Assembly: GCA_041661965.1 (NCBI GenBank)
Contig: JBAZTH010000001.1
Coordinates: forward strand, 226,710 to 290,709
Origin: Candidatus Margulisiibacteriota bacterium
GTDB taxonomy: Bacteria; Margulisbacteria; WOR-1; O2-12-FULL-45-9; XYB2-FULL-48-7
DNA length: 64,000 bases
Reading direction: 5' to 3'
Shown in pieces: positions 2,448 through 35,771 of this stretch. Position 1 is the first letter of the stretch. Each line of letters begins with the position of its first letter. A program made the position numbers and the translations under genes. The notes beneath the pieces are model-generated. The model was not told the DNA's origin. It searched no databases and saw only the letters and a list, made by a program, of their open reading frames with translations.

Positions 2448-3083
2448 TTATTGCCGGCCGCGAATTCGGTCGCGACCGGAATTTTTCGCTTCATAGAGAG
2501 CGCTATCCGCTTTTTCGTAAAGCAGCTTTTGCAGGCCTGATTTTGCTTCCGGCGACAAAAAATTAGGTTTGACGTCAGGAGTGTAAGCGGCATAGCCGCC
2601 GCTGATCGTAACGCTGAAAACTCTGCCGCCGATCGAAAATTTTTCCGCCGCGATTTTTTGCCTTATCCTTTCGAGCGGAATAGGGGCGTCTTGATAAGGA
2701 GTTTCATCCAGAAAGACGAAGAATTCTTCTCCGCCGGAGCGGGCGACGATATCGGTGTTCCTTAAATTGCTTTTTATTATTTGCGCGACCCGTTTTAGCA
2801 CCACGTCGCCGGCTAAATGTCCGTAGGTGTCATTGACCGTCTTGAAATGGTCGATGTCGAATTCGGCGATGGTTAAATGTCGTCCGTAGCGCAACGCCCC
2901 GGAAAGCATGCGGTCAAATTCATCTTCCAAACCAAATCGGTTCAAAATCCCCGTTAACTGGTCGGTCTTGACAAGTTTGGACAAAGTCTTGACCTTCTCT
3001 GTTAAAAACCGGACCGTTTTTCGTAAATAGACGTTTTCAACGGCCAGACCGAGAAATGATCTTGGGGTCAGACTAGTTTTCAC
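2448..3083 (-). CDS. Diguanylate cyclase (GGDEF domain)
   Basis: GGEEF active-site motif, RxGGEEF context, N-terminal coiled coil. Confidence 0.8.
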   Translation of the reverse strand: MKTSLTPRSFLGLAVENVYLRKTVRFLTEKVKTLSKLVKTDQLTGILNRFGLEDEFDRMLSGALRYGRHLTIAEFDIDHFKTVNDTYGHLAGDVVLKRVAQIIKSNLRNTDIVARSGGEEFFVFLDETPYQDAPIPLERIRQKIAAEKFSIGGRVFSVTISGGYAAYTPDVKPNFLSPEAKSGLQKLLYEKADSALYEAKNSGRDRIRGRQ

Positions 3084-16155: not shown

Positions 16156-16827
16156 TTACTCCTGAAGGGCCGTGATGACCGCTTGGGCGAACTCTTCGGC
16201 CGCTTCAGCTCCGCTGCCGGTTACAACCTTGCCATCAGTTTCGACCGCCCGGCCGGTAACGTTAACGCCGACACCTTTAAGCGCCCGCTTGCCGTAAAGC
16301 GAAACCGCCGCTTTCTTCCCTTTACCGAGCGCGCCGCCGTTCACCAAGGCGATGGGGGCGAGGGAGAGGCCGCCGATGACCTTATCTTCTTTGACCGCTT
16401 TAGCGATCAGGCCGGTCGCTGTTTCGCTATGGTTATAAACGGTTACCCCTGGTCCGCCGATGAAAATAAGGGCGTCATAATCGGCCGCTTTGGCGTTCTT
16501 CAGGAGCCCGCAATTGACTTTAGCGCCAAACACGCCGTAAGCGGTTTTCGTGGTTGAGGCAACGGAGACCAGCAGGCCGGCCTCTTCAAAGGTCTTTTTA
16601 ACCGCGGCAAATTCTTTATCGTCAAATTTACTGGGAGCGACAACGAGCAGGACCTTTTTCCCTTCAACGGACGAACCCGCTTCCGCGGTCGCTTCTCCGG
16701 AGACGAGCTCAACTTTTAAGATCTCGAGCTTATAGTCATCCTTGGGAGCGGGACCGCCCATCGCGGAGACCGGACCGGCAATCAACAAAGCACAGAAACA
16801 AAGAGACAGCGCAGCAATTCTTTTCAT
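16156..16827 (-). CDS. DJ-1/PfpI-family protein with signal peptide
   Basis: Signal peptide, then a class I glutamine amidotransferase-like fold (VLLVVAP, DALIFIGGPG). Confidence 0.5.
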   Translation of the reverse strand: MKRIAALSLCFCALLIAGPVSAMGGPAPKDDYKLEILKVELVSGEATAEAGSSVEGKKVLLVVAPSKFDDKEFAAVKKTFEEAGLLVSVASTTKTAYGVFGAKVNCGLLKNAKAADYDALIFIGGPGVTVYNHSETATGLIAKAVKEDKVIGGLSLAPIALVNGGALGKGKKAAVSLYGKRALKGVGVNVTGRAVETDGKVVTGSGAEAAEEFAQAVITALQE

Positions 16828-17165
16828 TTTACTTCATTCCTCCCGTTTACTTTTACTATCTTGGCCTTCAAGGCCTTTGCTTCCTTTAGCGTTGCCAGGG
16901 CGTAGGCGATAATGACGACTTTTTCCCCCTTATGTCCGAGCTTGGCGGCCGGACCGCGGAGCGAGATCTCGCCCGGCCGGCCTTCGATCACGTAAGTCTC
17001 GAAGCGGTGGCTGTTGTCGAAATTAAGGACGTGGACCTTTTCCCCCGGGACCAGGCCGGCCGCTTTGATCAGCTTTTTGTCGATGGCGATGCTCCCCTCG
17101 TAATAGGGGTGAGTGTCGGTCACGGTCGCCATATGAATCTTTGATTTTAAAACGGAAATCAGCAT
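16824..17165 (-). CDS. panD: Aspartate 1-decarboxylase
   Basis: MLISVLKSKIHMATVT...YEGSIAID matches the PanD N-terminus and pyruvoyl-processing Gly-Ser site. I place the start at ATG 17165 (the track ORF extends to 17279). Confidence 0.8.
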   Translation of the reverse strand: MLISVLKSKIHMATVTDTHPYYEGSIAIDKKLIKAAGLVPGEKVHVLNFDNSHRFETYVIEGRPGEISLRGPAAKLGHKGEKVVIIAYALATLKEAKALKAKIVKVNGRNEVK

Positions 17166-17245
17166 CTCTTTGAGTATAGCGAAAAAGCCTTGATATTTCA
17201 AGGAATAAGCTGAAAGCTTAAAGCAATAAGCGGAAACCGTCCTCT

Positions 17246-17279
17246 TGGAAGCCAGCGACAGTATCGTCGCGGCTTCCAA
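17246..17279. repeat. Hairpin A-family element (GGAAGCC-a-GCGAC-agtatc-GTCGC-g-GCTTCC) in the panD / 17302 divergent intergenic region
   Basis: Same nested two-stem architecture as hairpins at 22358, 24006 and 32944, with compensatory base changes. A TATAAT -10 follows at about 17291. Confidence 0.45.
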
Positions 17280-21758: not shown

Positions 21759-22345
21759 GCTTTTGGCAGGATTTTAATCGCGGGATAGTTTCGGAAAACC
21801 CGGTCCTCCGGCTGATGATCGGGCTTTGCCCGACTCTTGCCGTTTCGACCAGCGCCGTTAACGCCCTTGGGATGGCGGCGGCGACCTCCTTTGTCCTGAT
21901 CTTTTCTAATTTAGTCGTCGCCCTGATCCGCAAGATCGTTCCCGACCAGATCCGGATCCCAATCTTTATTATCGTCATCTCGACCTTTGTAACGATCATC
22001 GATTACGTCATGCAAGCTTATACCCCCGACCTGCACCATGCTCTCGGGGTCTTCATTCCGCTGATTGTCGTCAATTGCATTATCCTCGGCCGAGCGGAGG
22101 CCTTTGCCTACAAAAACCCGGTCCTCGCTTCGACCCTTGACGGGATCGGCATGAGCCTTGGTTTTACCCTGGCCCTTTTGGCAATCGGTTTGATCCGGGA
22201 ATTATTGGGAGCGGGAGCTGTTTTTGGCGTCTCGCTGTATAATCCGGCGGTCGCGGCGACGATCATGATTTTGCCGCCCGGCGCCTTCATAACCATCGGT
22301 TTCCTGATGGCCTTACTTAATAAACTGGAGAACAAAGTCCAATGA
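21755..22345 (+). CDS. rnfE: Rnf complex subunit E
   Basis: RnfE/NqrD-family membrane protein. Confidence 0.85.
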   Translation: MSFWQDFNRGIVSENPVLRLMIGLCPTLAVSTSAVNALGMAAATSFVLIFSNLVVALIRKIVPDQIRIPIFIIVISTFVTIIDYVMQAYTPDLHHALGVFIPLIVVNCIILGRAEAFAYKNPVLASTLDGIGMSLGFTLALLAIGLIRELLGAGAVFGVSLYNPAVAATIMILPPGAFITIGFLMALLNKLENKVQ

Positions 22346-22448
22346 GAAAATTTTACTGGAAACCTGCGGCAATATCGCCGCGGTTTCCAAGTTTTAAAGA
22401 GAAGGAGAGGATAACCGCGACGTTTAGTCGCAGGTTATCCGTCAGCCA
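22346..22448 (+). promoter_or_regulatory. Structured intergenic RNA element inside the rnf operon: hairpin A (22358-22388), AAGGAGAG, hairpin B (22409-22440), then the rnfA ATG
   Basis: Hairpin A is GGAAACC-t-GCGGC-aatatc-GCCGC-GGTTTCC. Hairpin B is GGATAACC-GCGAC-gttta-GTCGC-a-GGTTATCC. The same arrangement with compensatory substitutions precedes trpB2 at 32944-33038. Confidence 0.5.
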
Positions 22449-23030
22449 ATGAGTCAACTCTTAGGCATATTTTTTGCCGCTTTCCTGATCAACAACATTC
22501 TGCTGATCAGGTTCATTGCCTTATGTTCGTTCTTTGGGGTTTCGACCAAGCTGGAAACTTCACTGGGAATGAGCTCGGCGGTGATCTTTGTCATGACGAT
22601 CTCCTCTGCCGTTTCCTGGGTTGCGTACCATTCGGTCCTGGTTCCGTTCCACCTGGAATTTCTCCGGACGGCGGTCTTTATCCTGACGATCGCTTCGCTC
22701 GTCCAGCTGGAAGAGCTTTACCTGAAAAAGATGATCCCGTCGCTTTATCGGGCGATGGGGATCTATCTCCCGCTCATTACTACTAATTGCGCCATTTTGG
22801 CGGTCGCTTTTCTGGCGATCGATTACCGTTACACTTTTATCCAGTCGCTGGTTTATTCGCTCGGGGTTTCCGGTGGTTATTCACTGGCGATAATTTTATT
22901 CGCTTATCTCCGGGAGCGGACCGCCCTGGCGCCGGTCCCGAAATGGTTCCAGGGGTATCCGATCGCTTTTCTGACGGCGGCGCTGATGTCGCTCGCCTTC
23001 CTGGGCTTTACGAGGATGTTCGGGCTATGA
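22449..23030 (+). CDS. rnfA: Rnf complex subunit A
   Basis: RnfA/NqrE-family membrane protein. Confidence 0.85.
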   Translation: MSQLLGIFFAAFLINNILLIRFIALCSFFGVSTKLETSLGMSSAVIFVMTISSAVSWVAYHSVLVPFHLEFLRTAVFILTIASLVQLEELYLKKMIPSLYRAMGIYLPLITTNCAILAVAFLAIDYRYTFIQSLVYSLGVSGGYSLAIILFAYLRERTALAPVPKWFQGYPIAFLTAALMSLAFLGFTRMFGL

Positions 23031-24005: not shown

Positions 24006-24078
24006 CTAGGAAACCTGCGGCAATATCGCCGCGGTTTCCTAGTTTTATTTTAACCGCCCCGATCGGATCGGGGCGGTT
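24006..24078 (+). terminator. Rho-independent terminator of the rnf operon (hairpin A-family copy plus U-tract), followed by a second perfect 13-bp palindrome
   Basis: CTAGGAAACCTGCGGCAATATCGCCGCGGTTTCCTAG then GTTTTATTTT; then AACCGCCCCGATC-g-GATCGGGGCGGTT. Confidence 0.55.
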
Positions 24079-31931: not shown

Positions 31932-31977
31932 ATAACCCTCACCCCAGTTTGATTTTGATAACAGTTGGTGCTTACTA

Positions 31978-32047
31978 CCCTCTCCCAGGGGGAGAGGGAG
32001 TGGTTCTTTTCCGGTAAGCAATAAGTCCCTCTCCCTTTGGGAGAGGG
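31978..32047. repeat. Two tandem hairpins with identical 9-bp stems (CCCTCTCCC-n3-GGGAGAGGG) in the pyrK-pyrD spacer
   Basis: Copies at 31978-31998 (loop AGG) and 32027-32047 (loop TTT), separated by 28 nt. Confidence 0.5.
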
Positions 32048-32100
32048 CTGAAAAGTATAACTAAGCAAGTGGCTCGAGCTTGGGTGAGGGTTATTAATGC

Positions 32101-32943: not shown

Positions 32944-33110
32944 GCCAGGAAACCGGCGAATAAACTTCGCGGTTTCCTGGCAAAAGGAGAGAATAAACGG
33001 TAACCGCGACGTTTAGTCGCAGGTTACCGTTAGCAATGAATGGCTTTCCTGGCATTATTTTGCTAAAATAACTTTTAACCGCTGAATTTATTCGCGGGAT
33101 ATGGAGGAAA
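32944..33110 (+). promoter_or_regulatory. Structured 5-prime leader of trpB2: hairpin A', AAAAGGAGAG, hairpin B, an 11-codon mini-ORF, then segments complementary to hairpin A'
   Basis: Hairpin A' at 32944-32981 (GCCAGGAAACC...GGTTTCCTGGC with inner GCGAA/TTCGC). Hairpin B at 32998-33029. Mini-ORF MNGFPGIILLK at 33036-33071. GGCTTTCCTGGCA at 33042-33054 and TTTATTCGCGG at 33085-33097 can pair back with hairpin A' 5-prime sequences. Confidence 0.45.
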
Positions 33111-33114
33111 TCCG

Positions 33115-34464
33115 ATGACAGATAGAAAGATCCTACTAAGTGAAAAAGATATCCCGACACGCTGGTACAACATTGCTCCTGATCTAAAAACCCCATTAGC
33201 GCCGCCTCTCCATCCCGGAACTCATCAGCCGCTGGGACCGCAGGATTTGGCGCCGCTTTTTCCGATGGAGATCATCAAGCAGGAAGTTTCCATGGATCCC
33301 TGGATCGATATTCCGCAAGAAGTTCTCGATATCCTCAAGATTTGGCGGCCGACGCCGCTGGTTCGGGCTTTGAGCCTGGAAAAAGCGTTGGGGACCAAAG
33401 CCAGAATCTATTACAAAAACGAAAGCGTCTCCCCGGCCGGTTCGCATAAGACCAATACTTCGGTCGCGCAGGCTTATTACAACAAAAAAGAGGGGGTCAA
33501 ACGGATCGCCACCGAGACTGGCGCCGGTCAGTGGGGCTCGGCCCTTTCCTTTGCTTGCGCTCTTTTTAATATTGAATGTCAGGTTTATATGGTCCGGGTC
33601 AGTTACGACCAGAAACCTTACCGCCGACTGTTAATGCAGACCTGGGGTGGGAAGGTTGTCGCTTCGCCCAGCAATTTAACGGAATACGGCCGGTCGGTCC
33701 TGGCCAAAGACCCGGATAATAAGGGGAGCTTAGGGCTGGCGATCTCCGAAGCGGTCGAGGATACGGTGAAGCATGATGATACCAAATACTCGCTCGGATC
33801 GGTCTTAAATCATGTGCTACTTCACCAGACGATCATCGGCCTGGAAGCGATCGAGCAGTTGAAGTCGATCGGTGAGAAAATGCCGGATGTGGTCATTGGC
33901 TGCGTTGGCGGCGGGAGCAACTTTGGCGGGATCGCTTTCCCATTCCTTAAGGACAAGCTGAAGGGGAAGACCAACCCGAAAGCGATCGCGGTTGAGCCGA
34001 TGTGTTGCCCGACCTTGACCAAAGGGGAGTTCCGCTACGACTATGGCGATACCGCCGGGATGGCGCCGATCGTTCAGATGTACACTTTAGGCCATGATTT
34101 TATGCCTCCCGGTATCCACGCGGGCGGTTTGCGTTACCACGGGATGTCGCCGTTGGTCAGCAATCTAGCGAAAGATAAAGTTATTGAAGCCCGGGCTTAC
34201 CATCAAACCGAATGTTTTGCTTCAGCCGTTCTTTTTGCCCGGACCGAAGGGATCTTGCCGGCGCCGGAAAGCTCCCACGCTATTCATTGCGCGGTCGACG
34301 AAGCGAAGAAGGCGAAAGAAGGGGATGTGATCATTTTCAATTTGAGCGGTCATGGTCATTTTGACTTAACGTCTTACGATTCTTATTTGTCCGGCAAACT
34401 GGAAGATTACGAATATCCGGTCGAGCTGGTCAAAGAAGCGCTGAAAAAAGTACCTAAGATTTAA
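33115..34464 (+). CDS. trpB2: Tryptophan synthase beta-like protein, TrpB2 clade
   Basis: PLP-lysine context (PAGSHKTN) and a long N-terminal extension typical of TrpB2. No trpA nearby. Confidence 0.8.
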
Positions 34465-34466
34465 AA

Positions 34467-34540
34467 TGGAGCCGAGGGGGATCGAACCCCTGACCTCTAG
34501 AATGCAAATCTAGCGTTCTCCCAGCTGAACTACGGCCCCA
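34467..34540 (-). tRNA. tRNA-Cys (GCA)
   Basis: Reverse complement folds as a cloverleaf: acceptor GGGGCCG/CGGCTCC, D-arm TAGTTCAGCTGGGAGAACG, anticodon stem CTAGA/TCTAG with loop TTTGCAT, T-arm GGGGTTCGATCCCC. CCA is not encoded. Confidence 0.85.
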
Positions 34541-34560
34541 TATTAAAATTAAAAAGATCG

Positions 34561-34682
34561 AACTTTTCGAATTGATCTAAACATTCTCCCAGTCCCGACG
34601 ATCCACCGCAGGTGGATGTCGGGATCCCGATGATTCCATAATTATTAAAAATAATGATCATCGGGACTGAACTACGGCCCCA
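34561..34682 (-). pseudogene. Degenerate second tRNA-Cys copy with two palindromic insertions in the D-loop
   Basis: Reverse complement reads GGGGCCGTAGTTCAG, then [TCCCGATGAT...ATCATCGGGA], then [TCCCGACATCCACC-tgc-GGTGGATcGTCGGGA], then CTGGGAGAA, followed by a degenerated anticodon/T region (..AGTTCGATC). Confidence 0.4.
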
Positions 34683-34748
34683 TTTGAGAATTGATTATAG
34701 CTTATTTTTAGAGTCAGAGGCAAGAATGGTGGCGAATCCAACCATTTA

Positions 34749-35771
34749 TTATCTTTCCACGATCGGGATTTCCTGGGCGGTAGAATAGAGCGTTGCCAGT
34801 CGGGAATAGAGCTCGGAGATCGGCGGCCGGGCTTCCGGTTTCTTATTAGTTGCCACCGCGATCGCTTTTCCCAACCCTTCATGTAATAAGTTGAGCTCGT
34901 CGCTATACCTCTCTCGGTTTTTTGGGGCCAAATGCCTGGCGATCGCTTCCTTTTTTAAAGGTGGAATTTCCCAAGCCAGTTGGCGGCGGCGGATTTCTCC
35001 TGGTTCACAGCAATTATCAGGCGTAAAAGGGTTTTTTCTGGCTAAAAGCTCGTGGAGGACGATCCCCCAGGAATAAATATCACTGCTTGGAAAGATCCTG
35101 CCGTTTTTAATCTGTTCCGGAGACATATACCCCGGCGTTCCGGCGATCATTCCCGCGTTTTCACTGAAGCCGATCGGGCAGACCAGGCCGAAATCAAACA
35201 TCCGTAGGCCGGTAAGATTGTTGATCAGGTTGGTTGGTTTAACGTCCCGATGGACGACCTCGGCCTGCTGATGGAGCTTTTCCAGCCCGTAAAGGACCTG
35301 CATGCCGATCTCGATTATCTCGTGTAATGAAAAGAGCTTCCCGCCATCAACTAGGGCGGCCAGGGTGTATCCGGCGATCATTTCCATGGCGATGTACCTG
35401 GTCCCGTGGAAAGTGCTGTATTCAACAAAATGCGGGAAGATCGGGTCGATCTGTCTTCTTAAAATGTCGGCCTCGCGGTCAAAGAACGGGAAGATCGATT
35501 CGGTGATCGTTGTCTTAAGGGCCAAGGGGGTGGGATCATGCCGGTCGGTCGCTTCAAAGATGGTCGTGTAAGTTGTTGCGGCCCGGACCGCGGTCAAATA
35601 GAAGCGGTCGCTGATGGTTAGTCCAGGAGCGAAGCAGGTCGGTATTTTTTGGTTGCTGATATGCTGCGGTTCCGTGCTGGGGAGTTCGTCGTCCCCGGCT
35701 AAACGCGGTTTTTTTATCGCCAGGAAATTAAGATTGCTTAATTTTCGGTGCGGGGGTTTGATCGGCTCCAC
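34749..35771 (-). CDS. Hanks-type Ser/Thr protein kinase
   Basis: HRDVKPTN catalytic loop, DFG and GTPGYMSPE activation segment. Confidence 0.8.
   Translation of the reverse strand: MEPIKPPHRKLSNLNFLAIKKPRLAGDDELPSTEPQHISNQKIPTCFAPGLTISDRFYLTAVRAATTYTTIFEATDRHDPTPLALKTTITESIFPFFDREADILRRQIDPIFPHFVEYSTFHGTRYIAMEMIAGYTLAALVDGGKLFSLHEIIEIGMQVLYGLEKLHQQAEVVHRDVKPTNLINNLTGLRMFDFGLVCPIGFSENAGMIAGTPGYMSPEQIKNGRIFPSSDIYSWGIVLHELLARKNPFTPDNCCEPGEIRRRQLAWEIPPLKKEAIARHLAPKNRERYSDELNLLHEGLGKAIAVATNKKPEARPPISELYSRLATLYSTAQEIPIVER

What the first reader, a model, noticed from the sequence alone, without database searches (positions are those of the whole stretch)
22346..22448. Conserved two-hairpin RNA element with covariation immediately upstream of start codons (rnfA and trpB2)
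Between rnfE and rnfA, and again upstream of trpB2 (32944-33038), the same arrangement occurs: hairpin A (GGAAACC-n-5bp-loop-5bp-GGTTTCC), then AAAGGAGAG, then hairpin B (8 bp plus GCGAC-gttta-GTCGC), then ..AGC(C)AATG start codon. Between the two sites the stems keep pairing through compensatory changes. In hairpin B, GGATAACC/GGTTATCC becomes CGGTAACC/GGTTACCG. In the hairpin A inner stem, GCGGC/GCCGC becomes GCGAA/TTCGC. This argues for selection on RNA structure. The SD-like AAGGAGAG sits about 45 nt from the ATG, and hairpin B could bring it into proper spacing. This is a cis-regulatory or processing element I cannot assign to a known class.
Basis: seen in the sequence. Interest (0 to 1): 0.7.

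Follow-up and report, generated by a model that had tools for sequence, protein, structure and literature searches.

The report
Mobile hairpin-pair repeat inside rnf operon
The two-hairpin element is not a gene-specific RNA switch but an inverted pair of a 30-base palindromic repeat that is scattered through Margulisbacteria genomes, sits next to a hairpin-recognising transposase gene in related genomes, and here was inserted between two formerly overlapping rnf genes.

Summary
The sequence observation is real, but hairpin B is hairpin A on the opposite strand. The element is an inverted doublet of one 30-31 nt imperfect palindrome, consensus GGAAACC-T-GCGAC-TAAAC-GTCGC-GGTTTCC. The window holds six units.

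The same unit occurs many times in Margulisiibacteriota/Saganbacteria/WOR-1 MAGs, mostly as '+ then -' doublets. Some copies lie in frame inside LeuRS, ValRS and SucC genes.

In at least ten loci from other MAGs and metagenome contigs, units in that orientation flank a low-copy IS200-like Y1 (HUH) transposase gene. This is the REP/REPIN-RAYT ("REPtron") layout. No such gene was found in the window.

In the closest syntenic relatives, rnfE and rnfA overlap (ATGA) and no unit is present. The window carries a 99-nt insert flanked by an 8-bp duplication, CCAATGAG, which preserves the rnfE stop and the rnfA start.

The rnfA Shine-Dalgarno sequence lies in the doublet spacer. Folding hairpin B would cut its spacing to the AUG from 41 to about 9 nt, as in the phage T4 gene 25/38 split ribosome-binding sites. 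This step is inferred.

The site-2 ATG is not the trpB2 start.

Verdict: an atypical REPIN-like mobile repeat, not a new riboregulator. It lacks the GTAG tag, and its transposase fails the curated RAYT model.

The parts
22358..22388 (+). Unit A of the site-1 doublet: GGAAACC-T-GCGGC-AATATC-GCCGC-GGTTTCC (31-nt variant)
   Evidence: 47.5 bits on +. With its 3' flank it is 97% identical to 24009-24047.
22389..22409 (+). Doublet spacer containing the Shine-Dalgarno-like AAGGAGAG (22402-22409). No other SD-like sequence lies upstream of the rnfA AUG.
   Evidence: An AGGAGA-containing spacer is shared only with site 2, L124 and L136 among 53 doublets.
22410..22439 (-). Unit B of the site-1 doublet. 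It is the same unit on the minus strand: GATAACC-T-GCGAC-TAAAC-GTCGC-GGTTATC.
   Evidence: 48.4 bits on -, 13.1 on +. In RNA it folds as a hairpin over 22409-22440.
22347..22445 (+). The 99-nt inserted segment (doublet plus short ends) between rnfE and rnfA
   Evidence: Comparison with the empty site in the closest syntenic relatives L209-L213, where rnfE and rnfA overlap by ATGA.
22339..22346 (+). Left copy of the 8-bp direct duplication CCAATGAG. It contains the rnfE stop TGA at 22343-22345.
   Evidence: The sequence is single-copy in L209 (GGGTCCAATGAGCGAA).
22446..22453 (+). Right copy of the duplication CCAATGAG. It contains the rnfA start ATG at 22449-22451.
32948..32977 (+). Unit A of the site-2 doublet: GGAAACC-G-GCGAA-TAAAC-TTCGC-GGTTTCC
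   Evidence: 55.5 bits
32978..32998 (+). Site-2 spacer with AAGGAGAG (32984-32991)
32999..33028 (-). Unit B of the site-2 doublet: GGTAACC-T-GCGAC-TAAAC-GTCGC-GGTTACC
   Evidence: 56.3 bits on -
33036..33071 (+). 11-codon ORF (MNGFPGIILLK*) that follows the site-2 doublet. It is not trpB2. It may be a decayed copy of the rnfA 5' end carried along with the doublet.
   Evidence: The similarity beyond unit B is only weakly significant (82/2000 shuffles reach it). trpB2 itself starts at 33115.
24009..24039 (+). Single unit after the 54-aa ORF downstream of rnfB, identical to unit A of site 1. It is followed by a GC-rich hairpin at 24052-24078.
   Evidence: 51.2 bits. No unit is detected in the syntenic stretch of L209-L213. 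The intergenic DNA there is too diverged to align, so the insertion boundaries are not defined.
17247..17277 (+). Single unit GGAAGCC-A-GCGAC-AGTATC-GTCGC-GGCTTCC, in the divergent region between panD (-) and the RseC/HypA/rnf cluster (+)
   Evidence: 48.9 bits. The Asp_decarbox domain starts at residue 39 of ORF 16824-17279, so the unit probably lies upstream of the true panD start.

Best explanation
The element is a REPIN-like inverted doublet of a REP-like repeat.

The repeat unit. The unit is a 30-31 nt imperfect palindrome. It has a 7-bp outer stem, one extrahelical base (usually T), a 5-bp inner stem and a 5-6 nt loop. It is dispersed through genomes of the candidate phylum Margulisiibacteriota (WOR-1/Saganbacteria), to which the window belongs.

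DNA-level mechanism (shown in part, inferred in part).
- Shown: in related genomes the same units, in the same '+ then -' orientation, bracket a low-copy IS200-like Y1 (HUH) transposase gene.
- Inferred, by analogy with IS608 TnpA and E. coli TnpA-REP: the unit is recognised as a single-stranded DNA hairpin by that enzyme, and this recognition is what keeps the stem paired.
- Inferred: doublets are its non-autonomous passengers.

History at this locus.
- Shown: a 99-nt doublet-containing segment is present between rnfE and rnfA, flanked by an 8-bp duplication of the ancestral overlapping stop/start (CCAATGAG). Both genes therefore stayed intact.
- Shown: at this site the closest syntenic relatives have an ATGA stop/start overlap and no insert. 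An overlap of this kind normally allows translational coupling (inference).

RNA-level consequence (inferred).
- The doublet is transcribed within the rnf mRNA.
- rnfA now starts from a Shine-Dalgarno located in the doublet spacer.
- Hairpin B (22409-22440) folds out and shortens the SD-AUG distance from 41 to about 9 nt. This is a 'split' ribosome-binding site like those of T4 genes 25 and 38.

Site 2. It is a second copy of the same SD-bearing doublet, lying 79 nt upstream of the true trpB2 start.
For: Identity and distribution.
- Hairpin B is the unit on the reverse strand.
- A genome-collection scan found the pattern overwhelmingly in Margulisiibacteriota/Saganbacteria/WOR-1 MAGs, with many hits per MAG. 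Hits in other phyla were single and mostly unpaired.
- Window proteins are annotated as Candidatus Margulisiibacteriota.
- 53 '+ then -' doublets were found, against a handful of other arrangements.
- One MAG carries a 139-bp doublet element in 6 identical copies.

Transposase link.
- Proteins of 128-130 aa match PF01797 Y1_Tnp at E 4e-24 and 1e-21.
- They carry an HVH motif and a Y-x-x-x-Q motif.
- The genes abut units in L023, L042, L048, L060 and L097 and in L204-L208. A '+' unit lies upstream and a '-' unit lies at the 3' end.
- 12 of 16 database sequences of the family carry C-terminal tails that are read-through translations of the adjacent unit.
- Each protein cluster occurs on only 1-4 contigs.

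Insertion.
- The closest relatives have RnfA 90.7% identical and the same gene order. Their rnfE and rnfA overlap by ATGA, and no unit is found in 12.5 kb.
- The 8-bp duplication is present in the window.
- Most of about 45 more distant rnf loci inspected (of 80 retrieved) also have no gap, and the covariance model finds units in only L124 and L136 among all 80.
- L124 and L136 carry a doublet at the same junction with different duplications.

DNA-level rather than transcript-specific.
- Singletons show no orientation bias relative to transcription.
- In-frame copies lie inside LeuRS, ValRS, SucC, a DAO oxidoreductase and a PMT_2 glycosyltransferase.
- The units fold stably as single-stranded DNA, at -12 to -18 kcal/mol with z about -6 to -8.

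Split ribosome-binding site.
- The geometry is seen. L136 has the same layout.
- The precedent is reviewed in PMC3014915.
Against: - No Y1 transposase gene lies in the 64-kb window. None of the best 120 family members sits on the window's own 162.8-kb or 613,994-bp contigs. A cognate enzyme in this genome is therefore unproven.
- The protein passes NCBI's IS200/IS605 model (77.6 and 66.7 bits against a cutoff of 55). It fails the REP-associated tyrosine transposase model (42 and 53 bits against a cutoff of 80).
- The canonical GT[AG]G or CGTC tag of REPs is absent (2/115 each).
- IS200/IS605-type transposition is not known to make target duplications. Here there is an 8-bp one.
- Direct repeats of 7 nt or more flank 7 of 51 doublets, against about 6% in the null. 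This is only a weak enrichment.
- No binding, cleavage or transposition has been shown for this system.
- The split-SD step is untested. L124 has a second weak SD-like AAGGT after hairpin B.
Confidence: 0.78

Rival explanations
1. A dedicated cis-regulatory or processing RNA. Under this reading the two hairpins are selected at the RNA level to control translation or processing of rnfA and trpB2.
For: - Strong predicted RNA folds.
- A Shine-Dalgarno sequence sits in the spacer at both window sites and in L124 and L136.
- Many doublets elsewhere lie 10-25 nt upstream of start codons.
Against: - The closest relatives with the same operon have no such element, and their rnfE and rnfA overlap.
- Units occur in both orientations relative to transcription, inside ORFs and next to unrelated genes across a phylum.
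- The site-2 ATG is not trpB2's start.
- There is no Rfam match.
- The spacer sequence is not conserved among the 53 doublets.
Confidence: 0.04
2. A MITE mobilised by a cut-and-paste (DDE-type) transposase. The two inverted units act as terminal inverted repeats and the 8-bp duplication is a classical target-site duplication. The Y1 gene is merely another passenger or target between such repeats.
For: - The layout is inverted repeat, short spacer, inverted repeat, with an 8-bp direct duplication at the rnf site.
- Duplications of 7-12 nt flank several other doublets.
- One MAG has a 139-bp element in 6 identical copies.
- IS200-type enzymes are not known to make duplications (established knowledge).
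Against: - The duplications vary in length (about 5 to 12 nt). They are not adjacent to the units: 11 nt and 6 nt intervene in the window.
- Single units are common.
- No DDE transposase gene was noticed among the ORFs inspected next to units. No systematic search for one was made.
- The only gene recurrently bracketed by units is the Y1 gene, in at least 10 loci.
- Each 'inverted repeat' is itself a bulged hairpin, which is the substrate type of HUH enzymes.
Confidence: 0.1
3. A host-selected structural motif that spreads by recombination or gene conversion rather than by a dedicated transposase. It could act as an mRNA 3'-end protector, a partial terminator, or a binding site for a nucleoid or RNA-binding protein.
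For: - The 30-mers are near-identical in MAGs whose names indicate roughly 42-53% G+C.
- Pairing is maintained in the variable lower stem.
- A 39-nt tract is shared by 22358 and 24009, which suggests local conversion.
- REPs in E. coli are reported to have context-dependent 3'UTR effects (bioRxiv 10.64898/2026.03.23.713779, abstract only, seen).
Against: - This does not explain the constant bracketing of the Y1 gene, the presence/absence polymorphism with a target duplication, or the in-frame copies inside essential genes.
- No T-run follows the units, and the simple terminator scan does not flag them.
- There is no orientation bias.
Confidence: 0.08

Closest known systems
REP / REPIN elements with RAYT (TnpA-REP) transposases, in the 'REPtron' arrangement (E. 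coli, Pseudomonas; Bertels & Rainey 2011, PMC3116915; Quentin et al. 2018, PMC6006769)
   Same: - A short bulged palindrome with many dispersed copies.
- A predominant inverted-doublet form.
- Units in inverted orientation flanking a low-copy Y1 HUH gene.
- Occasional in-frame intragenic copies. These are reported for REPs in PMC3733652 and PMC6006769.
   Different: - There is no GT[AG]G or CGTC tag.
- The transposase has the IS200-type Y-x-x-x-Q motif and fails the curated RAYT model.
- Units are not depleted from divergent intergenic regions.
- A target duplication is seen.
- The host phylum (Margulisiibacteriota) does not appear with 'palindromic' in any relevant paper of the held library.
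IS200/IS605 insertion sequences (IS608, ISDra2) and their palindrome-associated miniature derivatives
   Same: - The TnpA core (PF01797, NF033573) with HUH and Y-x-x-x-Q motifs.
- The closest solved structures are IS200-family transposases 2f4f, 2fyx, 2xm3 and 2a6m.
- The substrate is a subterminal imperfect hairpin with an extrahelical base.
   Different: - The gene is low-copy and sits at different chromosomal sites in different MAGs. It is not a multi-copy identical IS.
- The flanking hairpins are inverted, not co-oriented.
- No tnpB lies next to the Y1 gene in the five contigs with gene calls.
- Hundreds of gene-less hairpins are inferred per genome, by extrapolation from six units in 64 kb.
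[quoted passage not shown] 2017 (PMC5581495). Membership in that group was not tested.
Rickettsia palindromic elements and intragenic REPs
   Same: Palindromic repeats tolerated in frame inside conserved protein genes. Here the hosts are LeuRS, ValRS, SucC, BioF (named by eye from its translation), a DAO oxidoreductase and a PMT_2 glycosyltransferase.
   Different: - These units are much shorter: 10 codons per unit, against roughly 35-50 codons for the Rickettsia elements as I recall them.
- They are associated with a Y1 transposase.
- The LeuRS copy occupies a variable loop and adds only about 2 residues relative to T. thermophilus LeuRS.
Split ribosome-binding sites of phage T4 genes 25 and 38
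   Same: A hairpin between the Shine-Dalgarno and the AUG brings an over-long spacing to a functional one. In T4 the spacing drops from 27 to 11 nt and from 22 to 5 nt (PMC3014915). Here it drops from 41 to about 9 nt.
   Different: Here the intervening hairpin is a copy of a mobile repeat and the arrangement arose by insertion. Function is inferred and not tested.

Membership tests
REP/REPIN-RAYT system | Short (20-40 nt) imperfect palindrome present in many dispersed copies per genome | tested here: met
   Six units lie in 64 kb. There are many hits per MAG across the phylum. The single-stranded DNA hairpin is stable at -12 to -18 kcal/mol.
REP/REPIN-RAYT system | Units mostly organised as inverted pairs (REPINs) | tested here: met
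   53 '+ then -' doublets with spacers of 1-27 nt. Other arrangements occur only in two arrays.
REP/REPIN-RAYT system | Units in inverted orientation flank a low-copy Y1 transposase gene (REPtron) | tested here: met
   At least ten loci in other MAGs and metagenome contigs. Each protein cluster occurs on 1-4 contigs. This was not shown for the window's own genome: none is in the window.
REP/REPIN-RAYT system | Conserved 5' GT[AG]G (or CGTC) tetranucleotide at the foot of the hairpin | tested here: not met
   GT[AG]G occurs in 2/115 and CGTC in 2/115 of the 8-nt 5' flanks. Flank information content is at most 0.33 bit.
REP/REPIN-RAYT system | Transposase belongs to the RAYT/TnpA-REP family (NF047646; Y motif Y-I-x-x-N-P) | tested here: not met
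   42.2 and 52.7 bits against a cutoff of 80. The Y motif is Y-I-x-x-Q, which is class 1 in PMC6006769 Table 1.
REP/REPIN-RAYT system | Transposase binds and cleaves the single-stranded hairpin | not testable with these tools
   Needs biochemistry.
IS200/IS605 insertion sequence | TnpA with an HUH motif and a Y-x-x-x-Q motif | tested here: met
   PF01797 at E 4e-24. NF033573 at 77.6 and 66.7 bits, cutoff 55. HVH and Y..Q columns are invariant.
IS200/IS605 insertion sequence | Multiple near-identical full copies per genome | tested here: not met
   Every cluster occurs on 1-4 contigs. At most one gene was seen per MAG among the fetched loci.
IS200/IS605 insertion sequence | Left and right subterminal hairpins on the same strand, and insertion without target duplication | tested here: not met
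   Flanking units are inverted. An 8-bp duplication is present at the rnf site.
Known structured cis-regulatory RNA (Rfam) | Match to a curated covariance model | tested here: not met
   There is no match at the gathering threshold. At E up to 10 nothing overlaps the element.
Split ribosome-binding site (T4 gene 25/38 type) | The SD is too far from the AUG in linear sequence, and a stable intervening hairpin restores 5-11 nt spacing | tested here: met
   GGAG ends at 22407 and the AUG is at 22449, a spacing of 41 nt. The hairpin at 22409-22440 is present in both the MFE and the centroid fold, leaving about 9 nt.
Split ribosome-binding site (T4 gene 25/38 type) | Destabilising the hairpin lowers translation | not testable with these tools
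   Needs reporter assays.
Intrinsic terminator | GC-rich hairpin followed by a T-run | tested here: not met
   The units are not flagged by the terminator scan. The 3' flanks are not T-rich overall.

The most novel reading that the evidence does not exclude
Margulisbacteria carry an independently domesticated IS200-type (class-1, Y-x-x-x-Q) Y1 transposase. It maintains a phylum-wide population of tag-less REPIN-like doublets. One doublet subfamily carries its own Shine-Dalgarno and works as a portable translation-initiation cassette. This lets it insert repeatedly, with a target duplication, exactly at overlapping stop/start junctions such as rnfE/rnfA, and uncouple the genes without killing them.
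Probability: 0.3. Interest if true: 0.6.

Novelty: new variant of a known kind. Interest (0 to 1): 0.42.

Why it matters
- It removes a false lead. The 'covarying two-hairpin RNA' is a mobile repeat, so similar hits in this phylum should be masked before searching for riboregulators.
- It documents, apparently for the first time, a REP/REPIN-like system in the candidate phylum Margulisiibacteriota, the sister lineage of Cyanobacteria.
- The associated transposase falls on the IS200 side of the IS200/RAYT divide. This bears on whether RAYT-type domestication happened more than once.
- The rnfE/rnfA site is a clean natural example of how an insertion between overlapping genes can be survived. 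The stop/start is duplicated, and the insert supplies a Shine-Dalgarno whose spacing depends on the repeat's own hairpin.
- In-frame copies inside aminoacyl-tRNA synthetase genes show how far such elements can be tolerated.

Tried and rejected
- **Rfam.** At the gathering threshold, and at E up to 10 over 17-34 kb, there was only a tRNA plus chance microRNA-like hits on a different palindrome.
- **Promoter and terminator scan.** The units are not flagged, and promoter-like counts equal the shuffled expectation.
- **Single ancestral insertion.** I tested whether W, L124 and L136 share one ancestral insertion. They do not cluster on an RnfA neighbour-joining tree. All JGI relatives are about equally distant, with RnfG 45-50% identical. 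The duplications differ. W's matches the junction variant of its empty closest relative, so at least W is independent.
- **Site 2 as a copy of site 1.** I tested whether site 2 is a copy of site 1 that includes rnfA's 5' end. Similarity past unit B is only marginal: 82/2000 shuffles and 52/2000 random 50-mers reach it. There is no similarity upstream of unit A.
- **General target duplication.** Direct repeats of 7 nt or more flank 7 of 51 doublets, against about 6% in the null. This is suggestive and not conclusive.
- **Transposase in the window or its contigs.** A tblastn search of the window found nothing. None of the best 120 of 391 profile hits lies on a 162,803-bp or 613,994-bp contig.
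- **Phage origin.** There are only 2 pattern hits in 2.9 million viral contigs.
- **A pairing with B as one long hairpin.** Both MFE and centroid folds prefer two local hairpins.
- **LeuRS copy as a clean 10-residue insertion.** It sits in a variable loop with a net difference of about +2 residues relative to T. thermophilus LeuRS.
- **Caveat on my own statistics.** My strict unit filter required pairing. Stem statistics inside the unit are therefore circular, except at the positions the original scan pattern left free and in the flanks.
Full report
**1. The observation**

| Feature | Site 1 | Site 2 |
|---|---|---|
| Hairpin A | 22358-22388, GGAAACC-T-GCGGC-AATATC-GCCGC-GGTTTCC | 32948-32977 |
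| AAGGAGAG | 22402-22409 | 32984-32991 |
| Hairpin B | 22410-22439 | 32999-33028 |
| Following ATG | 22449 (rnfA) | 33036 |

- The 25-mer core of hairpin B occurs exactly twice in the window, against none in 100 shuffles.
- RNA folding gives two local hairpins at each site, with z-scores of -6.9 and -7.4.
- Rfam has nothing at either site.

Two corrections are needed.
- The ATG at 33036 opens an 11-codon ORF. The 449-aa PALP-domain ORF, which NCBI names a TrpB-like enzyme, starts at 33115 behind its own GGAGG. So only the rnfA copy is 'immediately upstream of a start codon'.
- Hairpin B is not a different hairpin. Read on the minus strand it is GGTAACC-T-GCGAC-TAAAC-GTCGC-GGTTACC. This has the same architecture, bulge position and loop as hairpin A.

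**2. One unit, six copies in the window**

- Repeat finding and a pattern scan turned up two further single copies, at 17247-17277 and 24009-24039.
- A covariance model built from 80 distinct units (A1/R1) was run over the whole window without filters.
- It finds exactly six units at 47-56 bits. Four are on the plus strand and two (the 'B' hairpins) are on the minus strand.
- There is a discrimination of at least 24 bits between strands, and the next best hit scores 13 bits.
- The 'two-hairpin element' is therefore an inverted doublet of one unit.

**3. A phylum-wide dispersed repeat**

- The window is part of a metagenome contig. Its proteins are annotated by NCBI as Candidatus Margulisiibacteriota.
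- I scanned one genome per species for GGAARCCNGCGN{9,10}CGCGGYTTCC.
- The large majority are in Margulisiibacteriota/Saganbacteria/WOR-1 MAGs, often with ten or more per MAG. Hits in other phyla are single.
- Non-circular test: at positions the pattern left free, the inner stem pairs in 91/91 distinct Margulis hits. The pair types are AC/GT 54, AA/TT 29, GC/GC 7 and AG/CT 1.
- The R/Y position is A-T 74, G-C 16, G-T 1 and A-C 0. In hits from other phyla only 9/37 pair.
- The unconstrained flanks extend the stem in about 70% of copies, with 4-6 pair types per position.
- A relaxed scan finds 53 '+ then -' doublets with spacers of 1-27 nt. Other arrangements occur only in two arrays.
- One MAG carries a 139-bp doublet-containing element in six identical copies.
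- Singletons show no orientation preference relative to the flanking genes: 11 same and 10 opposite.
- Only 2 hits occur in 2.9 million viral contigs.

**4. Copies inside genes**

- Units lie in frame within long ORFs. Pfam confirms the hosts as LeuRS, ValRS, succinyl-CoA synthetase beta, a DAO-family oxidoreductase and a PMT_2 glycosyltransferase.
- The oxidoreductase carries its unit at the same site in three MAGs, with one or two units.
- The glycosyltransferase carries its unit at the same site in three loci, in both orientations.
- The LeuRS copy sits in a variable loop, with a net difference of about +2 residues relative to T. thermophilus LeuRS.
- Intragenic REPs have been reported before (PMC3733652, PMC6006769).

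**5. The associated gene**

- ORFs bracketed by units led to a 128-130 aa protein that matches PF01797 Y1_Tnp at E 4e-24 and 1e-21.
- A tblastn search finds it in five different MAGs, always abutting units.
- Five more contigs, fetched through its homologues, all show a '+' unit upstream and a '-' unit at the 3' end of the gene.
- This is the same orientation as in the gene-less doublets.
- In 12 of 16 aligned database sequences, the C-terminal tail (WKPRRxVSGFQ, GSRDV) is a read-through translation of the adjacent unit.
- Every protein cluster is seen on only 1-4 contigs.
- The gene sits in different neighbourhoods in different MAGs: LigA/SpoU, MurB, a Mg-chelatase-like gene, and once between rnfC and rnfD.
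- This is the REPtron layout described for RAYTs (PMC6006769).
- By sequence, however, the protein is on the IS200 side. It passes NF033573 and fails the RAYT model NF047646. It has HVH and Y-x-x-x-Q motifs. Its nearest solved relatives are IS200-family transposases.
- The canonical GT[AG]G/CGTC REP tag is absent.
- Bertels et al. (PMC5581495) noted one 'RAYT-like' IS200 group with no duplicates and abundant flanking 16-mers. I did not test whether this clade is that group.

**6. The rnf site is an insertion**

- Relatives in JGI metagenomes have RnfA 59-87% identical. Among the roughly 45 closest I inspected, most have rnfE and rnfA overlapping or 1-4 nt apart, and a few have a 20-30 nt gap with its own SD.
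- The covariance model finds units in only two of the 80 loci, L124 and L136. Both are doublets at this same junction with AGGAGA in the spacer.
- The closest relatives are the WOR-1 complete genome MEUD01 and four metagenome contigs. They have RnfA 90.7% and RnfE 81% identical and the same order: cobW, rnfCDGEAB, small ORF, methyltransferase, ArsP.
- In these relatives rnfE and rnfA overlap by ATGA, and there is no unit in 12.5 kb.
- Empty site: GGGTCCAATGAGCGAATTATTAGGCAT.
- Filled site: AAGTCCAATGAG[99 nt]CCAATGAGTCAACTCTTAGGCAT.
- The 8-bp direct duplication contains the overlapping stop/start, so rnfE keeps TGA and rnfA keeps ATG.
- L136 and L124 show different duplications: about AATGG, and a degenerate 12-mer.
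- W, L124 and L136 do not cluster on RnfA. W's duplication matches the junction variant of its empty closest relative.
- So the W insertion is independent of the other two. The junction has been hit at least twice.
- Across 51 doublets, flanking direct repeats of 7 nt or more are about twice as frequent as in mismatched controls, and several include the downstream start codon. The enrichment is weak.

**7. What the 'covariation' means**

- The site-1 A unit plus its 3' flank is 97% identical to the copy at 24009-24047. The unit itself is identical to copies in other MAGs.
- L124, L136 and site 2 all carry GCGAA-TAAAC-TTCGC in the A position. The A-stem difference between the two window sites is therefore a swap of unit subfamilies, not compensatory evolution in place.
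- Among copies at the same rnfE-rnfA junction there are genuine pair-preserving double changes. Examples are GGAAACC/GGTTTCC versus GAAAACC/GGTTTTC, GCGAC/GTCGC versus GAGAC/GTCTC, and lower-stem TTT/AAA versus TCT/AGA.
- The hairpin is thus constrained. The data do not say whether that constraint acts on single-stranded DNA (transposase recognition), on RNA, or through intra-palindrome repair. The lack of orientation bias favours DNA.

**8. Consequence for rnfA (inferred)**

- No SD-like sequence lies within 15 nt of the rnfA AUG.
- AAGGAGAG sits in the spacer, 41 nt upstream in linear sequence.
- The hairpin at 22409-22440 is present in both the MFE and the centroid fold. With it folded, the spacing is about 9 nt.
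- L136 has the same geometry (3 nt plus 8 nt). L124 also has a weak AAGGT after unit B, which derives from the duplicated rnfE end.
- T4 genes 25 and 38 are experimentally established cases of this 'split' arrangement (PMC3014915).
- The AGGAGA spacer is specific to these four doublets among the 53. This suggests an SD-carrying doublet subfamily that can survive insertion between coupled genes.
- Site 2 may be a copy of site 1 that dragged along the junction and the first codons of rnfA. The statistical support is marginal, at p of about 0.03-0.04.

**9. Verdict**

- The sequence observation is real and non-random. It belongs to a REP/REPIN-like mobile repeat family with an IS200-like Y1 transposase partner, not to a new class of riboregulator.
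- Two defining REP/RAYT features were tested and not met: the GTAG tag and the curated RAYT model. I therefore file it as a variant that works like a REPIN system, not as a canonical member.
- Three things remain unproven: a cognate transposase in this particular genome, any enzymatic activity, and the split-RBS function.

Noticed in passing
window 31972-32053: An ~82-nt near-perfect palindrome built from CCCTCTCCC/GGGAGAGGG arms lies between two minus-strand genes of the dihydroorotate dehydrogenase pair. It is unrelated to the hairpin unit and gave only chance microRNA-like Rfam hits.
   Followed up: no
window 34525-34570 and 34667-34712: The part of tRNA-Ala(TGC) (34466-34540, minus strand) at its high-coordinate end, with adjacent sequence, is repeated 142 nt away, but only one tRNA is detected. 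This may be an attachment-site-like duplication next to ORF 34749-35771.
   Followed up: partly
window 24052-24078: A perfect GC-rich hairpin, AACCGCCCCGATC/GATCGGGGCGGTT, lies directly after the single unit at 24009. It has no T-run on either strand and its role is unknown.
   Followed up: no
L205:3001-3429 (GCA_042562385.1, JBHPML010000005.1): In another Margulisiibacteriota genome the Y1 transposase gene itself sits inside the rnf operon, between rnfC and rnfD, with a unit at its 3' end. In that genome rnfE and rnfA are 1 nt apart.
   Followed up: partly
L037, L049, L073 (two copies), L075, L095 (MAG JACRPM01): A 139-bp element containing a doublet occurs in six 100% identical copies. In 5 of the 6, a TTGACT/TTGCAA/TTGCCT hexamer lies exactly 9 nt past its end.
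   Followed up: partly
L083:636-3083, L123:1971-4619, L069:1677-2798, L026:4226-5722, L052:3727-4887, L077/L078/L102: Units lie in frame inside LeuRS, ValRS, SucC, a DAO oxidoreductase, BioF and a PMT_2 glycosyltransferase. They encode GNRDVQSQVS, GNLRLNVAVS or KPATKRRGF, depending on frame and orientation. Orthologous sites are occupied in several MAGs.
   Followed up: partly
L137/L138, about 70 nt upstream of position 3001 and 2020 respectively: The rnfE-rnfA gap of these relatives holds three copies of AAGGTTTC, which resembles the 3' arm of the unit. No unit is detected there by the model.
   Followed up: no
L002 and L003 (Logan contigs with an identical RnfA): Both short assemblies start about 40 nt before unit B, so no complete unit A is detected in them. 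This is consistent with assemblers breaking at this repeat.
   Followed up: no
window 33076-33101: TAACCGCTGAATTTATTCGCGGGATA, between the site-2 doublet and trpB2, resembles a decayed third unit (73% identical to the unit B core) but is not detected by the covariance model.
   Followed up: partly
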